From assembly GCA_013359225.1 (NCBI GenBank), contig JABWCG010000001.1, positions 70,410-134,409 of the forward strand: a DNA stretch of 64,000 nucleotides, in the 5' to 3' direction. Below the pieces are notes generated by a model. The model did not search any database and was not told the DNA's origin. It saw nothing but the letters and a program-made list of their open reading frames with translations. Shown here piece by piece: positions 26,878 to 63,832 of the stretch (position 1 is its first letter; each line of letters begins with the position of its first letter). Position numbers and translations under genes: made by a program. The stretch comes from Candidatus Buchananbacteria bacterium (GTDB lineage: Bacteria; Patescibacteriota; Patescibacteriia; Buchananbacterales; UBA6539).

Positions 26878-28539
26878 ATGAATAAAAAATTATTCAGCTA
26901 CTTACTGCTTGGCTTAATAATTTTTACCGCTGGTTTTTTACGTTTTTATCAGTTGGATCATTCTGATGTTATTAATGATGAAGCGATTATTGGTTTTCGC
27001 TCAATCGGGTATATTGATTTTTTCTCGTCGCCATATCAGACCACTCCTTGGGAGTGGTTTTCTGATGTCCCGGCCTGGGCGAGACTGTCATTTCATGATC
27101 ATCCGCCTTTAACGTTTGTGTTGCAGCACATTTCGTTTAAGCTGTTTGGACAAAACCTCTTTGCTTTGCGCTTGCCGTTTGCCCTGGCTGGTGTTGCTTC
27201 TGTTGTGTTGCTTTATCTGATCGCCAAAAATTTGTACGGCAAAAAGTCGGGCATCATTGCCGCCTTATTGCTAGCCGTTAGCAGCTACCACGTATGGGTA
27301 AGCCGAACCGGACTGCAGGAGGCGTTAGTTATTTTCTTTATCTTGTTAACGTTGTTCTTATTTTTGAAAGCTTTGGAAAATGGCCAACATTGGTGGTGGG
27401 GGATTAGTTTAGGGCTTGCGATGCTGACTAAATACACGACATTCATTTTGCCGCTGGGTTTTATTTGTTATTTATTTTTTTTCAAGCGGTCAGTTCTAGT
27501 TAATAAAAAATTTTGGCTGGCAATTTGTTTAGCGGCTTTAATTTTTAGCCCGGTCATTTTTTACAATATAAAAATGTACCAAACAGTTGGGCATTTTGAT
27601 TTGCAATTTTCGTATTTGTTTGGTCAGCAAGTTGCGGAGTGGCAGTCGTTACCTGGCAAAGAACAAATGGGAGATTTTATTGACCGCTTAAAAAATATCA
27701 TACCCGCGATCTACCAGGGATTCTTGTGGCCGATGTTTTTTATGCTGATTGCATCGTTTGGATTTTTAGGATTAAAGATTTTTAAATCAAGAGTTGATAA
27801 CGACGCTAAAAAAAATTGGTTGCCGGTTATTGCGATTATTTTCTATCTTTTATTCTTCTTATTAATTGGCCCGTCGAAAAGATTTGTGGTTATCTTGGTT
27901 CCTTTTGTTATTTTATTAATCGCTTGGTTTATCGGCAGTTTGCCACGAGCCGCAAGAATTATTTTATTGATAATTTTAATCCCGCTTGAAATATTTTTCA
28001 GTTGCAATACTTTATTGGCATATAACCCGATTGGTACAAGAGGCTTAACGTATTCTTATTTAGATATTGAAAATTATAATTGGGGGTATAATCAGCTTGA
28101 TTCGTACTTATCAAATATTTTGGCTGATAAAAAACCAGCATTTAGCCTGGAAACCAAGTATCCATTTTTAGAAACTATTCGTAAAAAATCGCTTAATGAA
28201 GCTAAAAATAAGTCGGAATTAGCGGCGTTAATTGTTTATGATCCAAATTTTTATGACCTTGCGACTTTTTGGACTTTTCATCGAAGATTAGTATATGCGT
28301 CTTGGCCAATTGTCAGCGCTGACGTGTATCTGCAGCAAGGAAAAGATTTTTGGCAATCCCAGGGGATTAGTGACGTTTATTTTTTCAAGATCAAAGACCC
28401 GCTGATTTTAAGCCAGTCAGTTACCGTTTTTTCCACCGCCGCTGAGGAGCTGGCGAATAGTTTTGATAGTATCCAGCCGGATATTATAAAGCGGCCTGAC
28501 GGCCGCGAGGTTTTTGAGGTGTACCACTGGCAATTTTAA
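26878..28539 (+). CDS. Glycosyltransferase family 39 (PMT/ArnT-like), paralog 2.
   Basis: …LSFHDHPPLTFVLQHISFKLFGQNLFALRLPFALAGV… is near-identical in motif layout to paralog 1. Confidence 0.65.
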   Translation: MNKKLFSYLLLGLIIFTAGFLRFYQLDHSDVINDEAIIGFRSIGYIDFFSSPYQTTPWEWFSDVPAWARLSFHDHPPLTFVLQHISFKLFGQNLFALRLPFALAGVASVVLLYLIAKNLYGKKSGIIAALLLAVSSYHVWVSRTGLQEALVIFFILLTLFLFLKALENGQHWWWGISLGLAMLTKYTTFILPLGFICYLFFFKRSVLVNKKFWLAICLAALIFSPVIFYNIKMYQTVGHFDLQFSYLFGQQVAEWQSLPGKEQMGDFIDRLKNIIPAIYQGFLWPMFFMLIASFGFLGLKIFKSRVDNDAKKNWLPVIAIIFYLLFFLLIGPSKRFVVILVPFVILLIAWFIGSLPRAARIILLIILIPLEIFFSCNTLLAYNPIGTRGLTYSYLDIENYNWGYNQLDSYLSNILADKKPAFSLETKYPFLETIRKKSLNEAKNKSELAALIVYDPNFYDLATFWTFHRRLVYASWPIVSADVYLQQGKDFWQSQGISDVYFFKIKDPLILSQSVTVFSTAAEELANSFDSIQPDIIKRPDGREVFEVYHWQF

Positions 28540-29672
28540 TTTTCGTAGACCGCTTTTGTTTTAGCGGTCATTTCTGATAAACTGAATTTCTCTGACATGT
28601 CGGCTTTTGCTTGGGCCGATATTTTTTTTGACAAATTTTCATCTTCTAAGATATTGTCAATTGCTTTTGCCAGTGCGTCGGGGTCTCCAGACTTAACCAC
28701 TAACGCATTTTTTTCATCAGTTAGTAATTCGGGAATACCTCCGACATTGGTGCTGGCAATAGGCAACCCGGCTTTCATGGCTTCAATAATTGAGTAGGGC
28801 AGACCCTCTTTGACAGACGAGCAGACATAAACATCAAACGCTGCTAGATATTGGGAAGCCTGTTCTTTTTCTCCGGCCAGCAAAAAGACGTCTTCTAGCT
28901 TCAGGTTTTTAATTTCGGTTGTTAATTGATTTCTTTGTTGGCCGTCGCCAATGACTACAAAAATGGTTTCTGGATGAAGTTTTGTTACAATATTAGCGGC
29001 TTGAATGAGCGTTTTTAGATCTTTGGTTAAATAAAAATTAGCGATTGTCCCGACAACTTTTTTATTGTCCGGCAAGTGTAGTTGTCGGCGCGCTTCTAGA
29101 CGCGGCAATAATTCAATGGTGTCCAAGCCGTTATGAACAGTGACAAGTTTATTAAGCGGGGCAATTTGGTTTTTGATAGCGCTTTTGCGATCGTAATCGG
29201 ATACGCAAATCAGAGTGTCTTTAAATCGAGCAGAAAATTTTTCGGCCACAAGATAAACAAATTTTTTCCACATCGGCATTGGCTCATTAAAGACAAAACC
29301 ATGGACTGTATATACTACTTTTTTAATTTTTGCACGTTTGGCAGCTAAGGCGCCAATAACTCCGGCCTTGCTACTGTTAAGATGAACGATGTCTGGACGT
29401 ATGGTCTTGATGAGTTTCTTAATTTCAAAATATGCGCGAACATCTTGCCAGGGGTTAATTTCTCGCACCAGATTTTTTAGGGTGTAACTTTTTATCTTTT
29501 TTTCGTCTAATTTAGTGAATAGATTTTTTCCGCGTCCGTCGAATTTTCCGGCGGCCACGGTGATTTCGTAGTTTTCCGGCATCAGCTGGCTGGCTAAATC
29601 AAAAATGTAGCGCTGTGCGCCGCCCCATTCCGCTTGTGTTACGATAAATAGAATTCTGTTTTTTTTAGCCAT
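28536..29672 (-). CDS. Glycosyltransferase family 4.
   Basis: GT-B with EX7E region (EGLPYSIIEAMKAGLPIASTNVGGIPELL). Convergent 4-nt stop overlap with the upstream GT39 gene. Confidence 0.8.
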   Translation of the reverse strand: MAKKNRILFIVTQAEWGGAQRYIFDLASQLMPENYEITVAAGKFDGRGKNLFTKLDEKKIKSYTLKNLVREINPWQDVRAYFEIKKLIKTIRPDIVHLNSSKAGVIGALAAKRAKIKKVVYTVHGFVFNEPMPMWKKFVYLVAEKFSARFKDTLICVSDYDRKSAIKNQIAPLNKLVTVHNGLDTIELLPRLEARRQLHLPDNKKVVGTIANFYLTKDLKTLIQAANIVTKLHPETIFVVIGDGQQRNQLTTEIKNLKLEDVFLLAGEKEQASQYLAAFDVYVCSSVKEGLPYSIIEAMKAGLPIASTNVGGIPELLTDEKNALVVKSGDPDALAKAIDNILEDENLSKKISAQAKADMSEKFSLSEMTAKTKAVYEN

Positions 29673-29694
29673 AAATTACTTATATTGAGCTTGA

Positions 29695-29792: not shown

Positions 29793-30749
29793 ATGGTAAT
29801 TCTAGTGACCGGTGGAGCCGGTTTTATTGGCTCTCAAGTGACCAAGTCATTGCTGGAGCGAGGGGATCAGGTAATCATTGTAGACAATTTCAATAATTAT
29901 TACGAGCCCTTATTGAAGGAAGATCGTCTTAATCAGCTACTGGCCGGTTTTAAGCCAGTAGTTTACCGTTTAGATATTGCTGATCAGGTAAAATTGTCGG
30001 AAGTTTTTAAAAATCATAAGATTGATAAAATTTGTCACTTGGCGGCTCAGGCAGGTGTCCGTTATTCCCTGGAAAATCCTGGAGTGTATATTAAGAGCAA
30101 TATTATTGGCACCCATAACCTTTTGGAATTAGCGCGTGAATACAAGATTAAAGATTTTGTGTTTGCTTCTTCGTCTTCGGTGTATGGTGATAATGAAAAA
30201 ATACCTTTCGCCGAAACTGATGTTGTTGACCGGCCAATTTCATTATACGCTGCAACCAAAAAAGCCAATGAGCTTGAAGCATACACTTATCATAAATTAT
30301 TTGGGCTTAATGTTTTTGGTTTGCGGTTTTTTACTGTTTACGGGCCGTGGGGCCGACCGGACATGGCCTATTTTTTATTTACTAAGTCGATTTTGAGCAG
30401 CGAAGAGATAAAAGTTTTTAATCAAGGCAAGATGAAGCGTGATTTCACTTATATTGATGATATTGTCGCCGGTGTTGTTAAGGCGTTAGACCGAGTCGCT
30501 GGATATGAAATAATTAATTTAGGCAACAATCAACCGATTACGCTTGAGGAGTTTATTGGCGTGATTGAAAACGAACTTGGTAAGACCGCTAAGAAAAAAT
30601 ATGATGACCGCCAACCAGGTGACGTGATTGAAACGTACGCTGACATTACTAAAGCTAAAAGAGTTTTAGATTGGCAGCCATCAACTAGTATTAAAGCTGG
30701 ATTAAAAAAATTTATTGGGTGGTATAAGTCTTATTATCAAGTAGATTAA
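29793..30749 (+). CDS. NAD-dependent nucleotide-sugar 4-epimerase (UDP-GlcA/UDP-GlcNAcA 4-epimerase-like; TviC/WbpP/Cap1J family).
   Basis: GGAGFIGS Rossmann motif, YxxxK in YAATKKANE, and NYY(E/D)P signature. Confidence 0.8.
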   Translation: MVILVTGGAGFIGSQVTKSLLERGDQVIIVDNFNNYYEPLLKEDRLNQLLAGFKPVVYRLDIADQVKLSEVFKNHKIDKICHLAAQAGVRYSLENPGVYIKSNIIGTHNLLELAREYKIKDFVFASSSSVYGDNEKIPFAETDVVDRPISLYAATKKANELEAYTYHKLFGLNVFGLRFFTVYGPWGRPDMAYFLFTKSILSSEEIKVFNQGKMKRDFTYIDDIVAGVVKALDRVAGYEIINLGNNQPITLEEFIGVIENELGKTAKKKYDDRQPGDVIETYADITKAKRVLDWQPSTSIKAGLKKFIGWYKSYYQVD

Positions 30750-30752
30750 TCT

Positions 30753-32009
30753 ATGATAAAAGAAAAAATTTGCGTTGTTGGTTTGGGCTATGTCGGCTTG
30801 CCGTTGGCCTGTTTATTGTCGAAACATTTTGAGGTAAGCGGTTTTGATATCAATGAGAAAAAAATTAAAGATTTAGAAAACGGGTTTGACGAAACCGGCG
30901 AAGTTGATGATTTAAAAAAGTATCAGATTAATTATTCTTCAGATCCGGCCGTCATCGGCGAAGCCACATTTATTATTGTTGCCGTTCCAACGCCAATCAC
31001 TGAAACTAATGAACCGGATTTGTCACCCGTTGAAAGTGCGTCAAAAATTGTTGGCCAACATCTCAAACCTGGTGCGGTGGTGGTGTATGAAAGCACGGTG
31101 TACCCCGGCTGTACGGAAGAAATTTGCCTTCCAATTTTGGAACAGGAGTCTGGCTTGAAGCTTGGACGTGATTTCGAAATCGGTTATTCGCCTGAACGGA
31201 TTAATCCAGGAGATAAAGTACACACGGTCGACAAGATTGAAAAAATAATTTCTGCGAGCACACCCGAAGCGCTGGAGCGCTTGAAAAAAGTGTACGGCTT
31301 GATTACTAAAGTTTTTGAAGCCTCGTCAATTAAAGTGGCTGAGGCGGCCAAAGTGATTGAGAACGTTCAGCGCAGCCTTAATATTGCTTTAATGAATGAG
31401 CTGGCATTAATTTTTGACAAACTGGGTATTAGCACCAAAGATGTTTTAGCCGCCGCCGGCACCAAGTGGAATTTTCATAAATACCAACCCGGCTTGGTTG
31501 GCGGCCACTGTATTGGCGTAGATCCCTATTATTTAACACATAAAGCCCAGCAGGTCGGGTATGATCCAAAAATTATTTTGTCGGGGCAAGAAGTTAATGA
31601 ATCGATGGCCGGACTGGTAGCAGATAAATTTGCTGGTAAGAAAAATGTTTTGATTATGGGCATCACTTTTAAGGAAAACGTCCCTGATTCCCGTAATACT
31701 AAAGCCTTAAATGTTATCAAGCGATTAACCGCCCAGGGCATTAAAGTTTTCTGGCATGACCCGGTTTTTACCGCCAAACATAAACCGGAAGTTTTTTCGA
31801 CGTTGCCATATTTGAAGTCGTTTGATGAAATAACTGAAAAGTTTGATGGAATTTTAATTTTCAGTCCCCACGCTGTTTTTGCCGAACCTAAGTATGCACT
31901 GACAAATCTAAGAAATATTTGCAAAGATAACTCGGTCATTTTTGATGTCAAAGGTTTTTACGATAAGACCTCGGCACAAAATTTAGGTTTTACTTATTTA
32001 ACGTTATAA
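30753..32009 (+). CDS. Nucleotide-sugar 6-dehydrogenase (UDP-GlcNAc/UDP-Glc dehydrogenase; TviB/WbpO/WecC-like).
   Basis: N-terminal VVGLGYVGLP. Catalytic Cys in GGHCIGVDPYYL. Confidence 0.85.
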   Translation: MIKEKICVVGLGYVGLPLACLLSKHFEVSGFDINEKKIKDLENGFDETGEVDDLKKYQINYSSDPAVIGEATFIIVAVPTPITETNEPDLSPVESASKIVGQHLKPGAVVVYESTVYPGCTEEICLPILEQESGLKLGRDFEIGYSPERINPGDKVHTVDKIEKIISASTPEALERLKKVYGLITKVFEASSIKVAEAAKVIENVQRSLNIALMNELALIFDKLGISTKDVLAAAGTKWNFHKYQPGLVGGHCIGVDPYYLTHKAQQVGYDPKIILSGQEVNESMAGLVADKFAGKKNVLIMGITFKENVPDSRNTKALNVIKRLTAQGIKVFWHDPVFTAKHKPEVFSTLPYLKSFDEITEKFDGILIFSPHAVFAEPKYALTNLRNICKDNSVIFDVKGFYDKTSAQNLGFTYLTL

Positions 32010-32010: not shown

Positions 32011-33129
32011 ATGAGAGTTTTGATTTTTTCTTTAGCTTACTTGCCGTTTGTCGGCGGTGCGGAGCTGGCGGTAAAAGAAATAACCGATCGACTGCGCGAT
32101 ATTGAATTTGATATGTTGACGGTTGATTTGGACGGTAAACAACAACCAATTCAACAGATCGGCAATGTTAAAGTTCACCGCGTCGGGAAAGGCAAGCTGG
32201 CCAAGTATTTGTTTCCGTTTGCCGGCTTTACCCAAGCGGTGAAAATGCATCAAATCCAGCCGTATGATGCCGTATGGGCGATTATGGCTAACCAATCTGG
32301 TTTGATTGCTTTAAGATTTAAGAAAAAATTTCCGAGCGTCAAGTATCTGCTGACTTTGCAGGAAGGGGATTCGCTTAAACGAATCTGGAGCCGGACTTTT
32401 TTTATGCGACCCTTTTATAAAAAAATTTATCGGACCGCTGATCATATTCAATCAATTAGTACTTTTTTGGAAGAGCGCGCCTTAAAGTATGGATATGCCG
32501 GCGCTAAAAGTGTTGTCCCAAATGGTGTTGATCTGGAGAAGTTTAAGAAAGAATTTTCGGCTGAAGAGCTCGCAGCACTGCGCCAGCAACTTAATTTGTC
32601 TAAAGATGACAAGGTGATTATTACTACCTCTCGATTGGTCCACAAAAATGGCGTTGATACGTTGATTCAAGCGGTTAAAGATCTGCCGGTGAAATTGTTG
32701 ATTCTAGGTAGTGGTGAATTAGAAATTCAGTTAAAAAGTTTGGCGCAAGAAATCGGCGTGCGAGATAAAATTTTATTTTTAGGCCATATTGATCAGCAGG
32801 ATTTACCAAAGTATTTAAAGCTTTCCAATGTATATGTTCGCGCTTCCAGGTCTGAAGGCCTGGGCTCGGCGTTTTTGGAAGCGATGGCGGCGGGATTGCC
32901 GGTGATTGGTACGAATGTCGGCGGGATACCGGATTTTTTGAAAGACGGTGAAAACGGATTTTTTTGCGAAGTGAACAATCCGCGCGATCTGGCAAACAAG
33001 ATTCAGCTATTGTTGGGCGATGAGAATTTGAGTAGTTATGTGGCCGAGAATGGTCGGGCGATGGTATTTGAGAAGTACGACTGGCGGCAAATTGCGGATG
33101 AGATGAAAAACATTTTTAACCACTTATGA
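32011..33129 (+). CDS. Glycosyltransferase family 4.
   Basis: SEGLGSAFLEAMAAGLPVIGTNVGGIPDFL. Confidence 0.8.
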   Translation: MRVLIFSLAYLPFVGGAELAVKEITDRLRDIEFDMLTVDLDGKQQPIQQIGNVKVHRVGKGKLAKYLFPFAGFTQAVKMHQIQPYDAVWAIMANQSGLIALRFKKKFPSVKYLLTLQEGDSLKRIWSRTFFMRPFYKKIYRTADHIQSISTFLEERALKYGYAGAKSVVPNGVDLEKFKKEFSAEELAALRQQLNLSKDDKVIITTSRLVHKNGVDTLIQAVKDLPVKLLILGSGELEIQLKSLAQEIGVRDKILFLGHIDQQDLPKYLKLSNVYVRASRSEGLGSAFLEAMAAGLPVIGTNVGGIPDFLKDGENGFFCEVNNPRDLANKIQLLLGDENLSSYVAENGRAMVFEKYDWRQIADEMKNIFNHL

Positions 33130-36363: not shown

Positions 36364-36366
36364 TAT

Positions 36367-37269: not shown

Positions 37270-37895
37270 TTGAAGACAAAAATAAAGATTTTTCTACTCA
37301 AGACTATTTCGCCAAGGTATATGTCAATAAAGACCGTTGGGTTAGTTACTATTGGCAGACTAAATTAGTGAGTGATTTGATTACCTCTGGCAGTGTTTTG
37401 GAAATCGGCGTTGGCAATGCATTGGTGGCTGATTATTTAAAACATCGGTATCAAGTTTCAACCTTAGACATTAATGATAAATTAAATCCGGATTATATTG
37501 GTTCGGTTGAAGACCTTTCTTTTTTAGCAGAAAAGAAATTTGATGTTGTTGTTTGTGCCGAAGTTTTGGAACATTTGCCGTTTGAAAAATTTAAGCAGAG
37601 CCTGCAGCAAATGCATTCAGTATCAAGACGCCATGTCGTTATTTCACTGCCGTACTGGGGGTACACATTCTATGTGAGAATAAAATTGCCAAAATTAGGA
37701 AAACACACGTTTCAATTTAAACTTAATGGTTTTAAACGTCATCGGTTTAATGGACAGCATTATTGGGAAATCGGTAAAAGGGGGTATTCAGTTAAAAAAA
37801 TTAAAGATGAAATAGTTAATTCCGGATTTAAAATTAAAACGTCATTTTGGGATGTTGATGACCCATACCATTATTATTTTGTCTTAGAAAAATGA
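37266..37895 (+). CDS. Class I SAM-dependent methyltransferase.
   Basis: Motif I VLEIGVGNA. Acidic-loop and post-II motifs (FDVVVCAEVLEHLP). Confidence 0.7.
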   Translation: MIEDKNKDFSTQDYFAKVYVNKDRWVSYYWQTKLVSDLITSGSVLEIGVGNALVADYLKHRYQVSTLDINDKLNPDYIGSVEDLSFLAEKKFDVVVCAEVLEHLPFEKFKQSLQQMHSVSRRHVVISLPYWGYTFYVRIKLPKLGKHTFQFKLNGFKRHRFNGQHYWEIGKRGYSVKKIKDEIVNSGFKIKTSFWDVDDPYHYYFVLEK

Positions 37896-42910: not shown

Positions 42911-42917
42911 AGTTATT

Positions 42918-44018: not shown

Positions 44019-44020
44019 TT

Positions 44021-44695: not shown

Positions 44696-44702
44696 AAAGA
44701 TT

Positions 44703-45314: not shown

Positions 45315-45316
45315 TT

Positions 45317-46387: not shown

Positions 46388-46389
46388 CT

Positions 46390-48367: not shown

Positions 48368-48371
48368 GCAT

Positions 48372-53060: not shown

Positions 53061-53066
53061 GAGAGT

Positions 53067-55233: not shown

Positions 55234-55234
55234 T

Positions 55235-58627: not shown

Positions 58628-61114
58628 ATGAATTTAGACAAATCGAAAGTAAGCGCGTATCTTTTGAATATTATCAAGATTGGAGCTTTGGTTATTGTTT
58701 TTCTCCCGCTGGTAATGAATAGTCAGTATTTTTTTCCGTTCATTGTTTTTAAGAATGTTTTGTTCAGAATTACGACTGAGATAATTTTGGTAGCTTATTT
58801 AATTTTAGCGCAATTTAATCCCAGCTATCGGCCAAAATTTCCGGCTATTGCAATTGCGGTATTTGCCTTGTTGGGTATTTCAGCGTTGTCCACGCTGACG
58901 GGTATCGGTATTTACAGTAGTTTCTGGGGAAACTATGAGCGCATGTCTGGACTATTCCATCAACTTCACCTGGTGGCTTTCTTTTTTGTACTATTCAATG
59001 TGTTTAGAAGTAAAAAAGATTGGTATTCATTATTTACCTTTTCAATTTTTGCCAGTATGCTGATGGCATTTTTAGGATTGGCTCAGTGGCTTGAAGTGCC
59101 ATTTTTGTTGCGTTCCTCAGGAGGTACCCGCTTAACCGGTACGATCGGTAACGCTACTTTTTTTGCCGCCTATTTGATTTTTAACATCTTTTTTGTTCTA
59201 TATTTCTTCGCCAAGGATCGACGGTTCGACCTCAAGCTTTTTGGTGCAAGTTTTTTGGCGTTTGATGCCTACTTATTCATCGGTGCTATTCTATATAAAT
59301 TGTCCGGTGATAGTGATTGGGGGTTCTTGAATGTTTTACGCGTGCCCTTAATTGAGAAATCAATTGAGTATCCGGTTTTCTTGTGGAGTTTTATTATCTT
59401 TCAGTTGGCGCTTTTGGGAACCTGGCTGTGGCGTAATCGGCCGCAAGTGGTCAGGGGATTATTGGGAATAGTTTTTTTGTTTGAATTCTTTATTCTCTAT
59501 AACACGGAAACTCGTGGTGCATTGATCGGGTTAGCGGCTGGCTTGGTGTTGTTGGTTGCCGCTTCAATATTCAAGCCAGGGCTTGATCGGCGTTTAAAAA
59601 TTGCCGGCGTTACGTTCGTGGTTTTAATTTTGCTTTCGCCGTTGATTTTGGTTGCTAATAAGAATTCTAATTTTGTTCAGTCTGATGATACACTGCGCAG
59701 GTTAGCAACAATTTCGTTAACAGATATTACAACAGAATCTCGTATTTTAACCTGGCAGGCAAGTTGGCGCGGCTGGTCTGAGAGCGTCAAATCATTTTTG
59801 ATTGGCTACGGCCCAGAAAATTATTATTACACGTATAATAAGTATTTCCCGGTTGAAATTTATAAAGACAACGGTTCGCAGATTTGGTTTGACAGAGCTC
59901 ATAATGTCATTTTCGATTATGGCGTGACTACCGGTATTTTAGGATTGGGTGCGTATTTGACAATGCTAGGCTTAGCTATTTGGGCGTTGTTTAAACAGTA
60001 TCGTCAGGGTGGCAGTTTTAGTAGTAGCTGGCTTTTTATCGGTTTGATTGTTGCTTATTTCATTCAAAACATTTTTGTCTTTGATACGATGAATACGGAA
60101 ATCCCACTTTATGCAACGCTAGCCTTTGTTGTCTTTTTGTCGCAGTCAAAATCCGCTGAGTCTTTTAGTGAAACTGATGATCTTGGGTATAAACCGATTA
60201 ACTATTTAGCGGTAACCGGCTTGGTATTATTGCTTGGTTTGGGTATTTTTGGCATTAACGTTAAAACCTTGCGTGCTAATCACTATATCTATGAAGCATT
60301 AACTACAAATAACTTGGCCGTCGGAGCAGAGGACGGCTCGTTTGATTTATTAAAAAAATCAGTTGAAGAGTCGGTCGTTGGTAAGTTTGAAGCCAGACAG
60401 CAGCTTTCTAATTTTGTGGCCGGGCTGGTGAGAAACAGTGAAGTTTCCGCCTCTCAAATCAAGCAAGTTTTGAATTATACCGATCAGCAACTGCAAAAAA
60501 GCGTCGCGGAAGAACCGTTGAATATCAGACAGTACCTTTTCTTGTCGACGTATTACAATGCCACCACCAGGGTTAACCAAAATAATCCGCAGCGGGTGTT
60601 GGATTTATTGGAGCCTGCCGTGTATTTAAGTCCGACGCGGCCTCATGTGTATTATGAAATTGCTCAGGCGTACGCTTTCCAGAATAATTTTGAAAAGGCT
60701 GAGGAATATTTCAAAAAAGGGCTGGAATTAGCGCCGTGGGTTAAGGAAGACTATTGGAATGTCTTAACTATTTACATTGTTTTTGAAAAGTATGAGCAAT
60801 CTGATAGTTATATTGAATATATGAAATCCCAGCTTGATTGGGAGCCCGGATTGAATGATTATAAGAAGCTAGCCGATCTTTATTCCCGGGTCAAAAATTA
60901 TGATCGGATGATTAAATATCAGGAAAAGGTAGCTGAGCTTGAGCCAAGCGCCGCTAATTATGCCAAGTTGGCGGCAATGTATGCGGCCATTGGCGAAAAC
61001 CAAAAAGCTAAGGAGCTAACACAGCGGGCGGTGAATCTCAACCCTGATTTTGCTGCAGAAGCGCAAAAGTTTTTAGAGCTCCTGGAGCAAGGTGAATTGC
61101 TCGATCAACAATAA
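58628..61114 (+). CDS. Wzy_C-superfamily (O-antigen ligase/polymerase or PglL-like O-oligosaccharyltransferase) membrane protein, fused to C-terminal TPR repeats.
   Basis: About 12 TM helices with a large periplasmic loop (Wzy_C-like region around …YNTETRGALIGLAAGL…). C-terminal about 250 aa of TPR-like repeats (…YYEIAQAYAFQNNFEKAEEYFKKGLELAP…). Confidence 0.65.
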   Translation: MNLDKSKVSAYLLNIIKIGALVIVFLPLVMNSQYFFPFIVFKNVLFRITTEIILVAYLILAQFNPSYRPKFPAIAIAVFALLGISALSTLTGIGIYSSFWGNYERMSGLFHQLHLVAFFFVLFNVFRSKKDWYSLFTFSIFASMLMAFLGLAQWLEVPFLLRSSGGTRLTGTIGNATFFAAYLIFNIFFVLYFFAKDRRFDLKLFGASFLAFDAYLFIGAILYKLSGDSDWGFLNVLRVPLIEKSIEYPVFLWSFIIFQLALLGTWLWRNRPQVVRGLLGIVFLFEFFILYNTETRGALIGLAAGLVLLVAASIFKPGLDRRLKIAGVTFVVLILLSPLILVANKNSNFVQSDDTLRRLATISLTDITTESRILTWQASWRGWSESVKSFLIGYGPENYYYTYNKYFPVEIYKDNGSQIWFDRAHNVIFDYGVTTGILGLGAYLTMLGLAIWALFKQYRQGGSFSSSWLFIGLIVAYFIQNIFVFDTMNTEIPLYATLAFVVFLSQSKSAESFSETDDLGYKPINYLAVTGLVLLLGLGIFGINVKTLRANHYIYEALTTNNLAVGAEDGSFDLLKKSVEESVVGKFEARQQLSNFVAGLVRNSEVSASQIKQVLNYTDQQLQKSVAEEPLNIRQYLFLSTYYNATTRVNQNNPQRVLDLLEPAVYLSPTRPHVYYEIAQAYAFQNNFEKAEEYFKKGLELAPWVKEDYWNVLTIYIVFEKYEQSDSYIEYMKSQLDWEPGLNDYKKLADLYSRVKNYDRMIKYQEKVAELEPSAANYAKLAAMYAAIGENQKAKELTQRAVNLNPDFAAEAQKFLELLEQGELLDQQ

Positions 61115-61115
61115 A

Positions 61116-63365
61116 ATGAATACATTTAAGAAAGCAGTATTATCTTCGCTTATTGCCGCCGTGCAATTGGTAGGCCTGATGCCAGCACTAACCATGCCGG
61201 TTTGGGCGGCGGAAACCGACCAGTTTAAGGCTGGAGAATTTTTGGTTAAGTTTAAGGGTAATGATGAAATTTATCGGATTAAAACGTCAGCTGACTCAGA
61301 CATTAATCAGATTATCGGCAAGCTTGGAAATCATGCTGAGCTTGAGTATGTTGAACCAAACTACACTTTTGACTATGCCGCATTCCCCAACGATCCGGAC
61401 TATCGGTTTCAATGGTATCACTCTGCAATTGATACTAGGAATTTGTGGTCTAAGGAATTGTTGCTCAGAGAACAGCGTAACATTAAGAGTGAGTCGGTGA
61501 TTGCTGTTTTGGATACGGGAGTTGATTTGGATCACCCTGATTTAGTTTCAAAAATTTGGAAAAATACCGATGAGATTCCCGGAAACGGTCGGGACGATGA
61601 TGCTAATGGCTACGTTGATGATGTTAACGGCTGGGATTTTGTTGATGCCGACGCTGACAGCAATCCATCTTTTGCCCAGGGTTACGTTGAAGATGCGGTT
61701 AAACACGGAACGTTAGTTGCCGGTTTGGCGGCCGCGAGCGTCAACAATGGTGAAGGTATTGCGGGCGTAAGCTGGTATAGCAAAATAATGCCATTGCGGG
61801 TTTTGGACAGCAGCGGTTCTGGCGATGTTTTTTCAGTCGTTCAGGCGATTGATTATGCGGTTAAAAACGGTGCGGATGTTATTAATATGAGTTTTGTCGG
61901 TCAGAATGCGAGCCAAAGTCTGCTATCAGCAATTAAGCGCGCGTACAATAGTAATGTATTGGTAGTGGCTGCGGCCGGGAACACTGATCCGAGTGTAAAT
62001 GGTGTTGATATGAGCATCACTAAATCATATCCGGTTTGTTATGACGGCGATAACGGTGAAAATATTGTTATCGGCGTGGCATCGGTTGGAAAGAATCTAG
62101 TGAAATCAAATTTTTCTAACTATGGTGACTGTATTGATATTGTTGCACCGGGTGACAGTTTTTATACCACGCAGGTCTATGATCAGAAGGTAAACGGGTT
62201 TAATCAAAAGTATTCAGGTTATTGGTCTGGTACCTCGCTCTCAGCTCCCTTGGTGAGTGGTGTTTTGGCGACAATGAAAGAAATTCGCCCTGAGTTGTCC
62301 GCTCCGCAAATCAGGGATCTTTTGCTTGATAATACAATTGATGTGTATGCGTATAACGCTGAGTATAAGGGCAAGCTCGGCCAAGGGTTGCTAAACGCCA
62401 GCCAGGTGCTTGAAGCGACGCTTAAAGAACGTCCGGCACCGGGGATGGCTGGTGAAGGCGGCTATATTGTTGTTGGGCTGGGATCTGGCTCATTTCCTCA
62501 GATTAAAGTGCTGAAACCGGATGGCTCGGTGTTTAAAGAGTTTTATGCCTATAGTCCCTATTTTAAAGGACAAATTAATGTTGCGGTCGGTGATGTTGAC
62601 GGCGATGGTGTTGACGAAATCATCACCGGCGCCGGTTCGCTCGGGGGTCCCCATGTTCGGGTGTTTAATGTTGAGGGTCAGCTAGAGTCAGAATTTTTTG
62701 CTTATAATTCAAAGTTACGCACTGGTGTTACTGTTGCGGTCGGTGATGTTGACGGCGATGGTGTTGACGAAATCATCACCGGCGCCGGACGAGGGACTGG
62801 GCCGGAGGTAAAAGTTTTTGATGCAACCGGAAAAATAAAAAACACTTTTTTGGCCTATGGCGAGAATTTCAAAGGGGGAGTAAAAATTGCCGTTGGCGAT
62901 GTTGATAAAGATGGTGTTGATGAAATCATCACCGGCGCCGGTTCGGGCGGCGGTCCCCATGTTCGGGTATTTGAATCTAACGGAACTTTGTTAGCTCAAT
63001 TTTTTGCCTATAACCAGAATTTCCGGGGCGGCATTAATATTGCGTCCGGTGATATTCATGGTGACGGTCAGGCTGAAATTATGGTTAGTGTGGAGGAAAA
63101 TTCAGTGCCGACGGTTCGGGTGTTTAATTATCAAGGACTGATGCTTTCAAACTTCTTTGTTGATGAACCTAATTTTTTGAAGGGAATTTACGTTGGTGCG
63201 GGAGACCTTGACGGGGACGGTCTTTCCGAAATTGTGGCTGGAAAAAACGTCGGTGGCAATGCGGAAGTAAAAGTTTTTGATTGGCTGGGTAATACTAAAC
63301 ATACGTTAATGGCTCACGTTGAAAGCTATCGTGGCGGCGCCAGGCCGACTATCATCAGTAATTAA
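61116..63365 (+). CDS. Secreted S8-family (subtilisin-like) serine peptidase with C-terminal FG-GAP/VCBS-like repeats.
   Basis: Signal peptide. Catalytic triad motifs AVLDTGVD, HGTLVAG, GTSLSAP. At least 5 repeats of …VAVGDVDGDGVDEIITGAGxxGGPxVRVF…. ATG at 61116 is preferred over the GTG at 61092. Confidence 0.8.
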   Translation: MNTFKKAVLSSLIAAVQLVGLMPALTMPVWAAETDQFKAGEFLVKFKGNDEIYRIKTSADSDINQIIGKLGNHAELEYVEPNYTFDYAAFPNDPDYRFQWYHSAIDTRNLWSKELLLREQRNIKSESVIAVLDTGVDLDHPDLVSKIWKNTDEIPGNGRDDDANGYVDDVNGWDFVDADADSNPSFAQGYVEDAVKHGTLVAGLAAASVNNGEGIAGVSWYSKIMPLRVLDSSGSGDVFSVVQAIDYAVKNGADVINMSFVGQNASQSLLSAIKRAYNSNVLVVAAAGNTDPSVNGVDMSITKSYPVCYDGDNGENIVIGVASVGKNLVKSNFSNYGDCIDIVAPGDSFYTTQVYDQKVNGFNQKYSGYWSGTSLSAPLVSGVLATMKEIRPELSAPQIRDLLLDNTIDVYAYNAEYKGKLGQGLLNASQVLEATLKERPAPGMAGEGGYIVVGLGSGSFPQIKVLKPDGSVFKEFYAYSPYFKGQINVAVGDVDGDGVDEIITGAGSLGGPHVRVFNVEGQLESEFFAYNSKLRTGVTVAVGDVDGDGVDEIITGAGRGTGPEVKVFDATGKIKNTFLAYGENFKGGVKIAVGDVDKDGVDEIITGAGSGGGPHVRVFESNGTLLAQFFAYNQNFRGGINIASGDIHGDGQAEIMVSVEENSVPTVRVFNYQGLMLSNFFVDEPNFLKGIYVGAGDLDGDGLSEIVAGKNVGGNAEVKVFDWLGNTKHTLMAHVESYRGGARPTIISN

Positions 63366-63367
63366 TT

Positions 63368-63832
63368 ATGACATTATTTAATCAAACGTTATCATTTGTA
63401 AGGCGGTATCCTTCTTTCAAGCAGTTTCTTAAATTTTGCATTGTCGGCGGAACTGCTGCAATGATAAATTTTTCTGTTTATTATTCGTTTACTGCCTGGC
63501 TTGAAGTTTGGTATGTGTATTCAGCGATTTGGGCTTTTTTAATTTCGGCTGTTTTTAATTTTACCTCTAATAAATTGTGGACATTTCGTAATAATGAAAT
63601 TGGTCTGCAAGTAGTAAAACAATTGGTTAAGTTTGCAATCGTAATGACCCTTGGTTTGGCAATTAACACTTCAATCATTTATGGTCTGACTGATTTAGTC
63701 AAAATTAACTGGTTGTTATCCTGGGTGGTTGCTACCGGGGTGGTTACTTTTTGGAATTTTGGGTTTAACCGATTATGGACGTTTCGTAAGCGAAAAAACG
63801 AGGCACCGGAATTGCCCTCGACCCAAATTTAG
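63368..63832 (+). CDS. GtrA-family membrane protein (polysaccharide synthesis / flippase accessory).
   Basis: 4-TM, about 150 aa. GtrA-like …FLKFCIVGGTAAMINF… and conserved WTFR segments. Confidence 0.7.
   Translation: MTLFNQTLSFVRRYPSFKQFLKFCIVGGTAAMINFSVYYSFTAWLEVWYVYSAIWAFLISAVFNFTSNKLWTFRNNEIGLQVVKQLVKFAIVMTLGLAINTSIIYGLTDLVKINWLLSWVVATGVVTFWNFGFNRLWTFRKRKNEAPELPSTQI

What the first reader, a model, noticed from the sequence alone, without database searches (positions are those of the whole stretch)
28536..63832. Complete lipid-linked-oligosaccharide assembly and candidate en bloc protein O-glycosylation system in a reduced genome
Within about 35 kb, almost all on one strand with 4-nt overlaps, the locus encodes every component of a Neisseria/Campylobacter-style general glycosylation pathway. 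These are: an initiating phosphoglycosyltransferase (57105-58496, WbaP-like, divergent from the next gene); seven GT4 transferases; nucleotide-sugar tailoring enzymes (6-dehydrogenase plus 4-epimerase, and four methyltransferases); an MsbA/PglK-like ABC exporter (40115-41923) as flippase; GtrA; and a Wzy_C-family protein fused to TPR repeats (58628-61114). PglL/PilO O-oligosaccharyltransferases belong to the Wzy_C superfamily, and a TPR fusion fits protein-substrate recognition better than LPS ligation. No Wzx/Wzz or LPS-core genes are seen, and the organism looks like a small-genome, cell-wall-simplified bacterium. Candidate acceptors in the same window are the pilin (13583-14065), the 1240-aa surface protein, and the FG-GAP subtilase.
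Basis: partly seen in the sequence, partly recalled or inferred. Interest (0 to 1): 0.82.

Follow-up and report, generated by a model that had tools for sequence, protein, structure and literature searches.

The report
Surface glycan island in ultrasmall bacterium
A tiny-genome Patescibacteria bacterium carries a large gene island that builds a complex sugar chain on a lipid carrier and probably attaches it to its main surface protein, much like known S-layer glycosylation systems but never described in this phylum.

Summary
Corrections: there are six GT4 enzymes, not seven. About 15 kb was not recognised: a pseudaminic-acid pathway (PseB/C/I above curated cutoffs), a second NeuB pathway, and two candidate nonulosonic-acid transferases. 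PseG is missing. The organism is a Ca. Buchananbacteria MAG. [quoted passage not shown] Its TPR domain lies outside the cell, beside the catalytic loop. The fold cannot separate ligase, O-oligosaccharyltransferase and polymerase. Synteny adds new evidence. PGT(-)|Wzy_C-TPR|S8-FG-GAP protease|GtrA is a conserved block across Patescibacteria. It closes a variable glycan island that opens with an ECF-sigma/anti-sigma/1240-aa Thr/Ser-rich surface-protein operon. In other lineages close Wzy_C-TPR paralogs sit directly after that surface-protein gene, exactly where this genome has two PMT_2 enzymes. The closest known analogue is Gram-positive S-layer glycosylation (WsaP/WsaB/WsaA), not the Neisseria or Campylobacter systems. 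Protein O-glycosylation is the best reading but is unproven. It is a new variant of a known kind, of moderate to high interest.

The parts
18932..20372 (+). ECF sigma factor (18932-19495) and DUF5667 anti-sigma-like membrane protein (19485-20372). They open the island.
   Evidence: Pfam. The same pair precedes the surface-protein gene in L032, L081, L082 and L083.
20632..24354 (+). 1240-aa secreted surface protein, S-layer-like, rich in Thr/Ser/Ala/Gly/Val (NUM25099.1). Candidate glycan acceptor.
   Evidence: It has an N-terminal signal or anchor and S+T of 23% against about 11% elsewhere. No Pfam or NCBIfam family matches. More than 1300 homologs of 1190-1290 aa were found; every named hit among the 120 listed is a Patescibacteria/CPR MAG or an unclassified bacterium MAG. 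Only the N-terminal ~165 aa are conserved in distant members. The gene is followed by Wzy_C-TPR paralogs in L010/L032 and by PMT_2 in the window.
24465..28539 (+). PMT_2 GT-C glycosyltransferase (24465-26168), membrane-anchored TPR protein (26170-26865), second PMT_2 (26878-28539).
   Evidence: Pfam (PMT_2 E 1e-25 and 2e-32). The order is the same in L081 and L082. In L010 and L032 two Wzy_C proteins occupy these positions.
28536..29672 (-). GT4 glycosyltransferase 1, divergent. It marks the start of the variable glycan region.
   Evidence: Pfam Glycos_transf_1 E 1e-38. Its position after the surface-protein operon is conserved in L081-L083.
29793..32009 (+). NAD-dependent sugar epimerase (29793-30749) and nucleotide-sugar 6-dehydrogenase, TviB-like (30753-32009). 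They likely supply an (N-acetyl)hexosaminuronic acid.
   Evidence: Pfam. NCBIfam TIGR03026 scores 383 bits against a cutoff of 190. TviB scores 383.6, below its cutoff of 592.
32011..39821 (+). Five GT4 glycosyltransferases (32011, 33126, 34241, 35326, 37892), a 300-aa soluble protein with no family (36367-37269), a class I methyltransferase (37266-37895) and an FkbM methyltransferase (39030-39821).
   Evidence: Pfam. Junctions overlap by 4-8 nt.
40115..41923 (+). Half-size ABC exporter (TMD-NBD, MsbA/PglK/HepA type). Candidate flippase for the lipid-linked glycan.
   Evidence: Pfam ABC_membrane plus ABC_tran. NCBIfam gives HepA 348, MsbA 314 and PglK 235 bits, all below the equivalog cutoffs. 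Homologs lie next to the PGT in L084. Among the census loci, ABC homologs (3 loci) and the presumed-Wzx BLAST cluster (12 loci) never share a locus.
41927..46848 (+). CMP-pseudaminic acid genes: PseB 41927-42910, PseC 42918-44018, PseF-like 44021-44695, DUF218 44703-45314, PseI 45317-46387, GNAT (PseH-like) 46390-46848. No PseG.
   Evidence: NCBIfam. PseB 467.7 (cutoff 407.8), PseC 459.5 (cutoff 423.5) and PseI 474.5 (cutoff 340.3) pass. PseF 162 (cutoff 206) and PseH 54 (cutoff 93) do not.
46838..50415 (+). Candidate nonulosonic-acid transferase 1 (46838-48367, 509 aa), methyltransferase (48372-49127), candidate nonulosonic-acid transferase 2 (49102-50415, 437 aa).
   Evidence: Matches to NF046086 (BFO_1060 family glycosyltransferase) are weak: E 1e-10 and 9e-15, far below the cutoff of 200. 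Capsule_synth and TIGR04396 also match weakly. BFO_1060 is the ortholog of the Tannerella Pse/Leg-derivative transferases. Those lie just downstream of the CMP-NulO genes and are separated by a methyltransferase in one strain (PMC5420450).
50424..57100 (+). Second ulosonic-acid module: NeuB-type synthase (50424-51500), SDR (51494-52294), FkbM methyltransferase (52302-53060), aldehyde dehydrogenase (53067-54515), second CMP-sugar cytidylyltransferase (54382-55233), transketolase-like protein (55235-57100).
   Evidence: Pfam. NCBIfam gives NeuB_NnaB 335.9 against a cutoff of 399.7, and PseF-like 152.9 and a transketolase subfamily model at 377.6 against a cutoff of 488. The product is unassigned.
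57105..58496 (-). Initiating polyprenyl-phosphate glycosylphosphotransferase (large WbaP/WcaJ-type PGT), divergent from the next gene.
   Evidence: Bac_transf E 5e-70. TIGR03025 scores 408 bits against a cutoff of 296. A homolog lies within 10 kb of the Wzy_C-TPR gene in 42 of 80 related loci, mostly adjacent and divergent.
58628..61114 (+). Wzy_C-TPR protein (NUM25132.1, 828 aa). It has 15 TM helices with a WaaL-fold core, an outside catalytic loop at residues 344-426, an extra TM at 526-559 and an outside TPR domain at 567-820. Candidate en bloc glycan transferase.
61092..63365 (+). Secreted or membrane-anchored S8 subtilase with FG-GAP repeats. The longest ORF (GTG at 61092) overlaps the Wzy_C-TPR gene by 23 nt; an in-frame ATG at 61116 lies 1 nt after the Wzy_C-TPR stop. 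It is a conserved partner and a candidate acceptor or maturation protease.
   Evidence: Peptidase_S8 E 2e-49 and FG-GAP E 2e-19. The Asp/His/Ser motifs are present in the sequence. The gene lies immediately downstream in 21 of 80 loci.
63368..63832 (+). GtrA-family small membrane protein. In relatives it is followed by epimerase, GT2 (223 aa), DUF2304 and GT2. It likely belongs to an Und-P-monosaccharide route that feeds the PMT_2 enzymes.
   Evidence: Pfam. Downstream genes were read in L001, L084 and L085. The window ends before them.

Best explanation
The region is the distal two-thirds of a roughly 45-kb cell-surface glycosylation island (about 18.9 kb to beyond 64 kb) in a Candidatus Buchananbacteria (Patescibacteria) genome.

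Shown at the level of family, fold and motif:
- A WbaP-type phosphoglycosyltransferase, six GT4 enzymes, two candidate nonulosonic-acid transferases and four methyltransferases.
- Sugar-nucleotide pathways for a hexosaminuronic acid, for pseudaminic acid and for a second ulosonic acid.
- An MsbA/PglK-type ABC exporter.
- A WaaL-fold Wzy_C enzyme with the ligase Arg/Arg/His residues on the outer face and a C-terminal TPR domain on the same side.

Inferred mechanism:
1. The PGT starts a glycan on undecaprenyl phosphate.
2. The cytoplasmic transferases extend it to an acidic, methylated, nonulosonic-acid-bearing oligosaccharide.
3. The ABC exporter flips it.
4. Wzy_C-TPR transfers it en bloc to an acceptor outside the membrane.

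The most likely acceptor is protein. The first candidate is Ser/Thr on the phylum-specific, S-layer-like 1240-aa protein that opens the island. The co-translated S8-FG-GAP protease may also be an acceptor. The TPR domain would hold the protein substrate.

A second route would add single sugars to the same targets. It consists of an epimerase, a small GT2 and GtrA, which feed the two PMT_2 GT-C enzymes and their TPR partner.
For: Wzy_C-TPR enzyme:
- The profile alignment puts R296, R372 and H425 on CmWaaL R191, R265 and H313.
- H425-N-x9-G436-xx-G439 fits H[NSQ]X9GXX[GTY], and these residues are invariant in 34 homologs.
- Alternating Lys/Arg-rich loops and the helix count place all invariant residues and the TPR domain outside the cell.

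Synteny:
- PGT(-)|Wzy_C-TPR is adjacent in most of the 42 of 80 loci that hold a PGT. The S8-FG-GAP gene follows in 21 loci and GtrA in 13.
- The block lies 32-60 kb downstream of the surface-protein operon on the same contig in two relatives, and the gene content between them varies.
- In L010 and L032 the order is sigma | DUF5667 | 1237-1247-aa homolog | Wzy_C-TPR | TPR | Wzy_C. This mirrors the window's sigma | DUF5667 | 1240 aa | PMT_2 | TPR | PMT_2.
- Those surface-protein-adjacent copies are the sister group of the window's clade.

Published precedents:
- The S-layer O-OTases WsaB and WsfB are Wzy_C proteins. They have a fused or adjacent TPR and a WbaP-like PGT, and the S-layer gene lies beside the cluster in Geobacillus (PMC2943079).
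- The Tannerella Pse/Leg transferases act in protein O-glycosylation (PMC5420450).
- A WaaL can glycosylate an adhesin (bioRxiv 10.1101/2022.10.31.514599).

No lipid A/core, Wzz or LCP family appears among the 57 window ORFs. Patescibacteria are regarded as monoderm and LPS-free; this is established knowledge and was not tested here.
Against: - There is no direct evidence that any protein is glycosylated.
- Fold and motifs are shared by ligases and O-OTases, and no solved O-OTase or Wzy_C-type polymerase was available for comparison.
- The window's own Wzy_C-TPR is 34 kb from the surface-protein gene. In this genome PMT_2 enzymes, not Wzy_C, flank that gene.
- The S-layer nature of the 1240-aa protein is inferred from composition and conservation pattern only.
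- PseG is missing. PseF and PseH score below their cutoffs.
- The ABC exporter is not an equivalog of PglK.
- Relatives often have a Wzx-type flippase, so Wzx/Wzy-style polymerisation is not excluded.
- The rest of the 601-kb genome could not be read.
Confidence: 0.5

Rival explanations
1. Wzy_C-TPR is a ligase for a non-protein acceptor. It would transfer the finished Und-PP-linked glycan to a membrane glycolipid, giving a lipoglycan or lipoteichoic-acid-like molecule as TacL does in Streptococcus pneumoniae, or to a cell-wall polymer. The PMT_2 enzymes alone would glycosylate the surface protein.
For: - The only strong structural relative is a lipid-acceptor ligase, WaaL.
- All ligase residues and the ligase motif are kept.
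- In this genome the genes flanking the surface-protein gene are PMT_2, and the Wzy_C-TPR gene is 34 kb away.
- TPR domains also occur in polysaccharide export machinery (general knowledge).
- TacL as a Wzy_C-family LTA ligase in a monoderm is recalled from memory and was not checked here.
Against: - Close paralogs sit directly after the surface-protein gene and are interchangeable in position with PMT_2.
- The enzyme is translationally coupled to a secreted protease in 21 of 80 loci.
- No glycolipid-anchor synthase or LCP gene is seen in the window or in five annotated relatives.
- The characterised monoderm Wzy_C enzymes with a fused or adjacent TPR are S-layer O-OTases.
Confidence: 0.22
2. 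Wzy_C-TPR is a Wzy-type polymerase. It would polymerise flipped Und-PP-linked repeat units into a capsule or exopolysaccharide. The TPR domain would act as a scaffold or chain-length device in place of Wzz.
For: - Pfam Wzy_C covers some polymerases, and the PDB depositors name CmWaaL 'polymerase/ligase'.
- Pfam census: 14 of the 61 polytopic neighbour proteins near the PGT/Wzy_C-TPR pair in relatives match Polysacc_synt, the Wzx-type family. A 12-protein BLAST cluster, presumed to be those Wzx proteins, spans 12 loci.
- The next structural relatives are the SEDS polymerases FtsW and RodA.
Against: - The exact WaaL ligase motif and the Arg/Arg/His set are invariant.
- The window has no Wzx, Wzz/PCP, Wza or LCP. 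It uses a PglK/MsbA-type exporter, as en bloc systems without polymerisation do.
- Eight candidate transferases fit one long oligosaccharide.
- A polymer left on Und-PP would still need a ligase, and none other is present.
- Paralogs are tied to genes for secreted proteins.
Confidence: 0.12
3. The Wzy_C-TPR enzyme is a dedicated O-OTase for the adjacent S8-FG-GAP protease only, or for type IV pilin, and not for the 1240-aa protein. This would parallel pilin-specific TfpO, PglS and TfpM, which are encoded beside their single substrate.
For: - The S8-FG-GAP gene follows immediately and is probably translationally coupled. This arrangement is conserved in 21 of 80 loci, including all close relatives.
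- A pilin gene and pilus genes lie in the same window.
Against: - Many family members lack the protease neighbour but keep the PGT.
- The protease is not Ser/Thr-rich, at 11%.
- The pilin is 45 kb away and nothing links it to the enzyme.
- Sister paralogs are tied to the 1240-aa protein.
Confidence: 0.1

Closest known systems
Gram-positive S-layer glycosylation (slg) clusters of Geobacillus stearothermophilus and Paenibacillus alvei (WsaP/WsfP, WsaB/WsfB, WsaA)
   Same: - A WbaP-like initiating PGT.
- Consecutive, overlapping GT and methyltransferase genes.
- A membrane exporter.
- A Wzy_C-domain transferase with a C-terminal TPR motif (WsfB) or an adjacent stand-alone TPR protein (WsaA).
- The S-layer gene lies next to the cluster in Geobacillus.
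- The centre of the cluster has lower G+C (PMC2943079; window G+C 0.36-0.37 at 38-42 kb).
   Different: - The exporter here is an MsbA/PglK-type half transporter, or Wzx in relatives, rather than Wzm/Wzt.
- The TPR domain is large, about 260 aa with about 13 helices, and follows an extra TM helix.
- There is a conserved S8-FG-GAP protease partner.
- PMT_2 GT-C enzymes occupy the position beside the surface-protein gene.
- The glycan includes nonulosonic acids.
- The host is a reduced-genome Patescibacterium, and the surface protein belongs to an unrelated family with no annotation.
Tannerella forsythia general protein O-glycosylation with terminal Pse/Leg derivative
   Same: - CMP-nonulosonic-acid genes are followed by a dedicated transferase of the BFO_1060/Tanf_01245 type, with a methyltransferase between them in one strain.
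- The glycan decorates S-layer proteins (PMC5420450).
   Different: - The window's two candidates match the family only weakly, at 41 and 55 bits against a cutoff of 200.
- The Bacteroidetes sequon D[ST][AILVMT] is not enriched in the 1240-aa protein.
- The cell envelope and the final transferase differ.
WaaL O-antigen ligase (Cupriavidus metallidurans 7TPG/7TPJ; E. coli WaaL)
   Same: [quoted passage not shown]
- An Und-PP-linked donor is expected.
   Different: - Three additional TM helices and a 260-aa external TPR domain.
- Sequence identity is about 15%.
- The organism is a monoderm lineage without LPS (general knowledge), and no lipid A or core genes are in the window.
- No NCBIfam ligase model matches.
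PglL / PilO(TfpO) / PglS O-oligosaccharyltransferases of Gram-negative bacteria
   Same: - A Wzy_C domain, a catalytic His in the large outer loop, Arg residues proposed for pyrophosphate binding, and a C-terminal extracytoplasmic domain after the core (PglS model, PMC12800693).
- Pilin-specific members are encoded beside their substrate gene, as the paralogs here sit beside the 1240-aa protein gene. The pilin-specific gene arrangement is recalled from memory.
   Different: - The C-terminal domain is a long TPR solenoid.
- The partner genes (divergent PGT, S8 protease, GtrA) are different.
Three-component Und-P-sugar systems (GtrA/GtrB/GtrC; Ppm1/Pmt protein O-mannosylation; CsbB/GtcA/YfhO)
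   Same: GtrA plus a small GT2 (in relatives) plus PMT_2 GT-C enzymes form the same logic. A lipid-P-monosaccharide is made inside, flipped, and transferred outside.
   Different: - The parts are split across the two ends of the island.
- The GT2 lies beyond the window end and was seen only in relatives.
- The acceptor is unknown.

Membership tests
Wzy_C / WaaL-type GT-C(B) transferases that use Und-PP-linked glycans | Pfam Wzy_C domain above the gathering score | tested here: met
   PF04932 at 58.6 bits against a cutoff of 31.7, residues 282-443.
Wzy_C / WaaL-type GT-C(B) transferases that use Und-PP-linked glycans | WaaL-like polytopic fold | tested here: met
   [not shown]
Wzy_C / WaaL-type GT-C(B) transferases that use Und-PP-linked glycans | [quoted passage not shown] | tested here: met
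   R296, R372 and H425 align to CmWaaL R191, R265 and H313. H425-N426-x9-G436-xx-G439 fits the motif. R296, R372, H425, G436 and G439 are invariant in 34 homologs and N426 is conserved in at least 90%. Residue list and motif come from bioRxiv 10.1101/2022.10.31.514599. The Cm-to-E. coli equivalence is inferred from a constant offset.
WaaL LPS O-antigen ligase (sensu stricto) | Lipid A-core acceptor: the organism makes LPS, and core or lipid A genes are present | tested here: not met
   None of the 57 ORFs in the window matches an Lpx, Kdo or core family. The host is Ca. Buchananbacteria, and Patescibacteria are regarded as monoderm and LPS-free (general knowledge). The whole genome was not readable, so absence is shown for the window only.
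WaaL LPS O-antigen ligase (sensu stricto) | Match to a curated ligase model | tested here: not met
   NCBIfam returns no family for residues 1-562 even at E up to 1.
Protein O-oligosaccharyltransferases of the Wzy_C family (PglL/PilO/PglS/WsaB/WsfB) | Wzy_C core with a catalytic His, plus an extracytoplasmic C-terminal domain or TPR motif | tested here: met
   The extra TM at 526-559 places TPR 567-820 outside, on the same side as loop 344-426. TPR motifs in WsfB and PglL, and the WsaA partner of WsaB, are described in PMC2943079. The C-terminal periplasmic domain of PglS is described in PMC12800693.
Protein O-oligosaccharyltransferases of the Wzy_C family (PglL/PilO/PglS/WsaB/WsfB) | Genetic linkage to an acceptor protein gene | tested here: inconclusive
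   Sister paralogs lie directly after the 1240-aa protein homolog (L010, L032, L014, L056). The window copy is followed by a secreted S8-FG-GAP protease gene. Linkage is suggestive but does not prove acceptor identity.
Protein O-oligosaccharyltransferases of the Wzy_C family (PglL/PilO/PglS/WsaB/WsfB) | Demonstrated transfer of glycan to Ser/Thr of a protein | not testable with these tools
   This needs glycoproteomics or heterologous reconstitution.
Protein O-oligosaccharyltransferases of the Wzy_C family (PglL/PilO/PglS/WsaB/WsfB) | Phylogenetic placement with characterised O-OTases rather than ligases or polymerases | not tested
   Reference sequences for PglL, PilO, WsaB, WsfB, TacL and Wzy were not retrievable. 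The afdb50 library was unavailable.
Wzx/Wzy-dependent polymerisation pathway | Wzx flippase plus Wzy polymerase plus Wzz/PCP chain-length regulator | tested here: not met
   The window has no Polysacc_synt, Wzz or Wza family. Its only polytopic proteins are the ABC exporter, PGT, Wzy_C-TPR and GtrA. Relatives do carry Wzx-type flippases (14 of 61 polytopic neighbours). No Wzz was seen in the five annotated relatives.
CMP-pseudaminic acid biosynthesis (PseB, C, H, G, I, F) | All six enzymes present | tested here: inconclusive
   PseB, PseC and PseI score above the equivalog cutoffs. PseF-like (162 against 206) and the GNAT PseH-like protein (54 against 93) score below. No PseG match was found, and a DUF218 protein occupies that slot.
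PglK-type lipid-linked-oligosaccharide flippase | Equivalog-level match to PglK | tested here: not met
   NF050066 PglK scores 235 bits against a cutoff of 1000. The best hit is the HepA family at 348 against 725. The architecture (TMD-NBD half transporter) and the position in the cluster fit the role. ABC homologs (3 loci) and the presumed-Wzx BLAST cluster (12 loci) never share a locus in the census.

The most novel reading that the evidence does not exclude
Patescibacteria as a phylum may share a previously undescribed surface-glycoprotein system with four features:
- A TPR-fused, WaaL-fold clade of O-oligosaccharyltransferases, with a dedicated S8-FG-GAP protease and a divergent PGT.
- Glycosylation of a phylum-specific S-layer-like protein of about 1240 aa that has a conserved N-terminal anchor and a variable body.
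- Positional interchange of the enzyme with PMT_2 GT-C enzymes.
- A hypervariable, serotype-like glycan cassette between the two conserved ends, here rich in nonulosonic acids.

For ultrasmall episymbionts that live attached to host cells, this glycan coat would be a main determinant of host and phage recognition.
Probability: 0.4. Interest if true: 0.8.

Novelty: new variant of a known kind. Interest (0 to 1): 0.6.

Why it matters
Patescibacteria (the Candidate Phyla Radiation) are a large, mostly uncultured branch of bacteria. They have tiny genomes and live on the surface of other cells, so their envelope is where their biology happens.

The held literature contains no paper that links this phylum to protein glycosylation, to O-antigen-ligase-type enzymes (apart from one unrelated co-mention), or to nonulosonic acids.

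This window, together with 80 related loci, shows that a genome of roughly 0.6 Mb or more spends about 45 kb on a glycan island. The island has conserved ends and a variable middle. It also names a concrete enzyme family, a candidate acceptor family with more than 1300 members and no annotation, and a conserved protease partner.

If the protein-acceptor reading holds, three things follow:
- S-layer-type O-glycosylation would extend to a new phylum.
- The large 'hypothetical' surface-protein family would gain a function.
- A TPR-bearing O-OTase scaffold would become available that may be useful for glycoengineering.

Tried and rejected
- Exact look-ups failed to retrieve the source contig and read beyond the window. 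The Wzy_C-TPR protein is not indexed. GtrA is found only on a 1-kb contig.
- The fold search with the full-length model was swamped by TPR proteins such as OGT, SPY and designed CTPRs. It was redone with a TM-only model.
- A sequence search of the TM domain against the PDB as a single sequence gave nothing. Only the profile reached WaaL.
- The afdb50 structure library was not available, so annotated O-OTases and polymerases could not be ranked.
- The NCBIfam scan of the TM domain returned no family.
- The WaaL structure paper (PMC9884178) is not held. Residue roles were taken from two other papers.
- The Bacteroidetes O-glycosylation sequon D[ST][AILVMT] is not enriched in the 1240-aa protein (7 observed against 9.9 expected) and is absent from the protease and the pilin. 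It was rejected as a clue.
- The pilin as acceptor was considered. No linkage or feature supports it.
- The 300-aa protein with no family (36367) was considered as a hidden Wzx or Wzy. It has no TM segment.
- tRNA and Rfam scans found only one tRNA-Pro, unrelated to the locus.

Full report
**Observation.**
- The PGT at 57105-58496(-) matches Bac_transf at E 5e-70 and TIGR03025 at 408 bits against a cutoff of 296.
- The TMD-NBD ABC exporter is at 40115-41923.
- The Wzy_C-plus-TPR protein at 58628-61114 matches Wzy_C at 58.6 bits against a cutoff of 31.7.
- GtrA is at 63368-63832.
- Also present are a nucleotide-sugar 6-dehydrogenase, an epimerase and four methyltransferases.

From 29793 to 57100 all genes are on the + strand. 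Junctions are overlaps of 4-26 nt or gaps of 1-8 nt. One nominal 134-nt overlap at 54382 comes from the longest-ORF start call. The only large gap is 293 nt, before the ABC gene.

Three corrections are needed.
- Pfam finds six GT4 genes, not seven.
- 'Every component' overstates the case.

**What the undescribed part holds.**
- NCBIfam places 41927, 42918 and 45317 above the equivalog cutoffs for PseB (467.7 against 407.8), PseC (459.5 against 423.5) and PseI (474.5 against 340.3).
- A PseF-like cytidylyltransferase and a GNAT protein score below their cutoffs.
- No PseG is found. A DUF218 protein sits in that position.
- Two proteins (46838-48367 and 49102-50415), separated by a methyltransferase, match the 'BFO_1060 family glycosyltransferase' model weakly.
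- BFO_1060 is the ortholog of the Tannerella forsythia Pse/Leg-derivative transferases of the general protein O-glycosylation system. Those genes lie just downstream of the CMP-nonulosonic-acid genes and are separated by a methyltransferase in one strain (PMC5420450).
- A second module follows: a NeuB-type synthase, an SDR, an FkbM methyltransferase, an aldehyde dehydrogenase, a second CMP-transferase and a transketolase-like protein. Its product cannot be assigned.

**Organism.**
The Wzy_C-TPR protein is identical to NUM25132.1, annotated 'O-antigen ligase family protein', from a Candidatus Buchananbacteria MAG. The contig is 601,517 bp. DUF5656 and DUF5667 proteins and pilus genes in the window fit a Patescibacterium.

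**The Wzy_C-TPR enzyme.**
- An AlphaFold2 model built on 34 homologs is confident: pLDDT 89.6 and pTM 0.87.
- The full model matched only TPR proteins, so the membrane part (residues 1-562) was modelled separately. That model has pLDDT 81.8 and pTM 0.87.
- Its only significant Foldseek match in the PDB is the WaaL O-antigen ligase 7TPG, at E 1.9e-4, prob 1.00 and TM 0.62.
- A profile of the family aligns R296, R372 and H425 with WaaL R191, R265 and H313.
- The stretch H425-N-x9-G436-xx-G439 fits the ligase motif H[NSQ]X9GXX[GTY]. That motif, together with R215, R288 and H338 in E. coli numbering, is reported as critical for WaaL (bioRxiv 10.1101/2022.10.31.514599).
- R296, R372, H425, G436 and G439 are invariant in the 34-sequence alignment, and N426 is conserved in at least 90%.
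- Helix positions and alternating Lys/Arg-rich loops give 15 TM helices with the N-terminus inside. All invariant residues lie on the outer face. An extra helix at 526-559 puts the TPR domain (567-820) outside, next to the catalytic loop at 344-426.
- No NCBIfam model matches the membrane domain.
- No solved O-OTase or Wzy_C-type polymerase exists in the libraries searched. Structure therefore shows a WaaL-type transferase for Und-PP-linked glycans but does not identify the acceptor.

**Comparative genomics.**
Conserved peptide patterns from the family alignment found at least 591 loci in species-representative genomes. The 80 best were fetched. By record title they are Patescibacteria or otherwise CPR MAGs, unclassified 'bacterium' MAGs, or a few MAGs labelled Gammaproteobacteria. 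Searching these with the window's proteins gave three results.

First, there is a conserved block: PGT(-) | Wzy_C-TPR | S8-FG-GAP subtilase | GtrA | epimerase.
- A PGT homolog lies within 10 kb in 42 of 80 loci, mostly adjacent and divergent.
- The protease follows immediately in 21 loci, and GtrA is present in 13.
- In three relatives the block continues with a small GT2, DUF2304 and a second GT2.

Second, the genes upstream of the PGT vary from genome to genome. They include Pse genes, NeuB, GT4s, amidotransferases and radical-SAM enzymes.
- In two relatives with long contigs the block lies 32 kb and about 60 kb downstream of an operon syntenic with window 18.9-28.5 kb.
- That operon runs ECF sigma, DUF5667, a ~1240-aa protein, PMT_2, TPR, PMT_2, then a divergent GT4.
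- The island therefore has two conserved ends and a variable middle, like O-antigen or capsule loci.

Third, in L010 and L032 the order is sigma | DUF5667 | 1237-1247-aa homolog | Wzy_C-TPR | TPR protein | Wzy_C.
- The window has sigma | DUF5667 | 1240-aa protein | PMT_2 | TPR protein | PMT_2.
- In a neighbour-joining tree these surface-protein-adjacent copies are the sister group of the window's clade. A second such pair is nested elsewhere in the tree (no bootstrap support was computed).
- Two classes of outward-facing, polyprenol-dependent glycan transferases therefore occupy the same slot beside the same secreted protein gene.

**The 1240-aa protein.**
- It has a signal or anchor sequence.
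- Ser+Thr make up 23%, against about 11% for other window proteins.
- Its composition is acidic and rich in Thr, Ala, Ser, Gly and Val. It has only six Cys.
- No family matches it.
- More than 1300 homologs of nearly constant length were found. Every named hit among the 120 listed is a 'hypothetical' protein from a Patescibacteria/CPR MAG or an unclassified bacterium MAG.
- In distant members only the N-terminal ~165 residues remain alignable, at 58% identity.
- A conserved anchor with a variable body is the pattern expected of an S-layer-type protein. This is an inference.

**Flippase.**
The window's ABC exporter is not an equivalog of PglK or MsbA. An ABC homolog sits beside the PGT in one relative. 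A census covered 61 polytopic neighbours of the enzyme across the 80 loci.
- 14 are Polysacc_synt (Wzx-type), 9 are PMT_2, 4 are further Wzy_C proteins and 3 are ABC exporters.
- BLAST clustering gave a 12-member cluster, presumed to be the Wzx proteins, in 12 loci, and ABC homologs in 3 loci. No locus has both.
- This fits alternative flippases. It also means that 'no Wzx' is a property of this genome and not of the system.

**Mechanism proposed.**
1. The PGT primes undecaprenyl phosphate.
2. Six GT4 enzymes and two candidate nonulosonic-acid transferases build an acidic, methylated oligosaccharide. It would contain a hexosaminuronic acid, pseudaminic acid and a second ulosonic acid.
3. The ABC exporter flips it.
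4. Wzy_C-TPR transfers it en bloc on the outer face.

I consider protein the most likely acceptor. The first candidate is the 1240-aa protein, and the protease is a possible second. The reasons are:
- the positional links described above;
- the external TPR domain;
- the absence of LPS, Wzz and LCP genes in the window;
- the published precedent below.

GtrA, together with the epimerase and small GT2 seen in relatives, more plausibly supplies Und-P-monosaccharide to the PMT_2 enzymes. That would be a second, separate route.

**Comparison with known systems.**
- The closest analogue is the Gram-positive S-layer glycosylation (slg) cluster.
  - It has a WbaP-like PGT (WsaP/WsfP) and a Wzy_C O-OTase (WsaB/WsfB).
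  - WsfB and PglL carry a C-terminal TPR motif. WsaB has a stand-alone TPR protein, WsaA, encoded just upstream.
  - The S-layer gene lies next to the cluster in Geobacillus (PMC2943079).
- PglS is modelled as a WaaL-like core plus a C-terminal periplasmic domain (PMC12800693).
- A true WaaL can also glycosylate an adhesin.

The differences here are:
- the long fused TPR solenoid after an extra TM helix;
- the conserved S8-FG-GAP partner;
- the PMT_2 interchange;
- the exporter type;
- the nonulosonic acids;
- the phylum.

**Rivals.**
- A TacL-like ligation to a glycolipid or cell-wall acceptor (0.22) is not excluded by fold or motif.
- A Wzy-type polymerase (0.12) is disfavoured by the intact ligase motif and the lack of Wzz, Wzx and LCP in the window. 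It is kept open by the Wzx genes in relatives.
- A dedicated single-substrate O-OTase for the protease (0.10) is a narrower version of the main reading.

**Novelty and score.**
Searches of the held literature gave the following.
- No paper links Patescibacteria/CPR with pseudaminic acid.
- No paper links CPR with S-layer protein glycosylation.
- None of the 20 top-ranked of 813 hits in a broader search pairs a Patescibacteria-type term with a nonulosonic-acid term.
- A 2024 perspective on the phylum does not mention glycosylation.
- Two papers mention both Patescibacteria and O-antigen ligase. The one listed and read mentions them in unrelated contexts.

The kind of system is known, so this is a new variant of a known kind. 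The acceptor is unproven. Interest is 0.6. If glycoproteomics confirmed a phylum-wide S-layer glycoprotein system with a new O-OTase clade, it would deserve about 0.8.

Noticed in passing
window 24465-28539; L032 10004-15612; L010 7362-12883: Non-orthologous swap in an otherwise identical operon. Two PMT_2 GT-C enzymes flank a small TPR protein after the 1240-aa surface-protein gene in the window. Two Wzy_C(-TPR) enzymes take exactly those positions in other Patescibacteria.
   Followed up: yes
window 20632-24354: The 1240-aa protein belongs to an unannotated family with more than 1300 homologs of nearly constant length (1190-1290 aa). Every named hit among the 120 listed is a Patescibacteria/CPR MAG or an unclassified bacterium MAG. 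The N-terminal ~165 aa are conserved and the body is hypervariable. It is always preceded by an ECF sigma factor and a DUF5667 protein.
   Followed up: partly
window 50424-57100: The second ulosonic-acid module combines a NeuB-type synthase and a CMP-transferase with an SDR, an aldehyde dehydrogenase, an FkbM methyltransferase and a full-length transketolase-like protein. There is no NeuC or LegB/C/G set. The product is unknown; it may be an unusual N-acyl or backbone variant.
   Followed up: partly
window 44703-45314: A DUF218 protein sits between the PseF-like and PseI genes, where a PseG UDP-sugar hydrolase would be expected. No PseG homolog is detectable anywhere in the window.
   Followed up: no
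window 61092-63365; 21 of 80 related loci: An S8 subtilase with FG-GAP repeats and an N-terminal anchor is a conserved partner of the Wzy_C-TPR gene and is probably translationally coupled to it. Its role (acceptor, maturation protease or host-directed enzyme) is unknown.
   Followed up: partly
L001 15221-18302; L084 15172-18261; L085 15862-19007: Just beyond the window end, relatives carry epimerase | GT2 (223-252 aa) | DUF2304 | GT2 after GtrA. This looks like the missing Und-P-sugar synthase part of a Gtr/Ppm-type pathway.
   Followed up: partly
window 1242-2633: A 463-aa protein with about 12 predicted TM segments has no Pfam or NCBIfam match. It is flanked by another unassigned protein and a DUF6938 protein.
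   Followed up: no
window 36367-37269: A 300-aa soluble protein with no family match is embedded between GT4 genes, with 3-4 nt junctions. It may be an unrecognised glycan-modifying enzyme.
   Followed up: no
L006, L012, L021, L027, L032, L057, L061 (record titles): Several TPA metagenome-assembled genomes that carry clear Patescibacteria-type loci are labelled 'uncultured Gammaproteobacteria'. Many others are labelled 'Candidatus Saccharibacteria'. These labels are likely taxonomic errors in the records.
   Followed up: no
window 38001-42000: G+C is lowest (0.364-0.367) in the centre of the glycan region, against 0.39-0.50 in the left third of the window. The same is described for the strain-specific centre of slg and cps clusters.
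   Followed up: no
window 4080-8679 and 11390-15700: There is a complete SUF Fe-S assembly operon (SufC, B, D, S, U). There is also a type IV pilus gene set (PilT-like ATPase, small membrane proteins, an N_methyl pilin and DUF5656) upstream of the island. The same order is kept in relatives L081 and L082.
   Followed up: no
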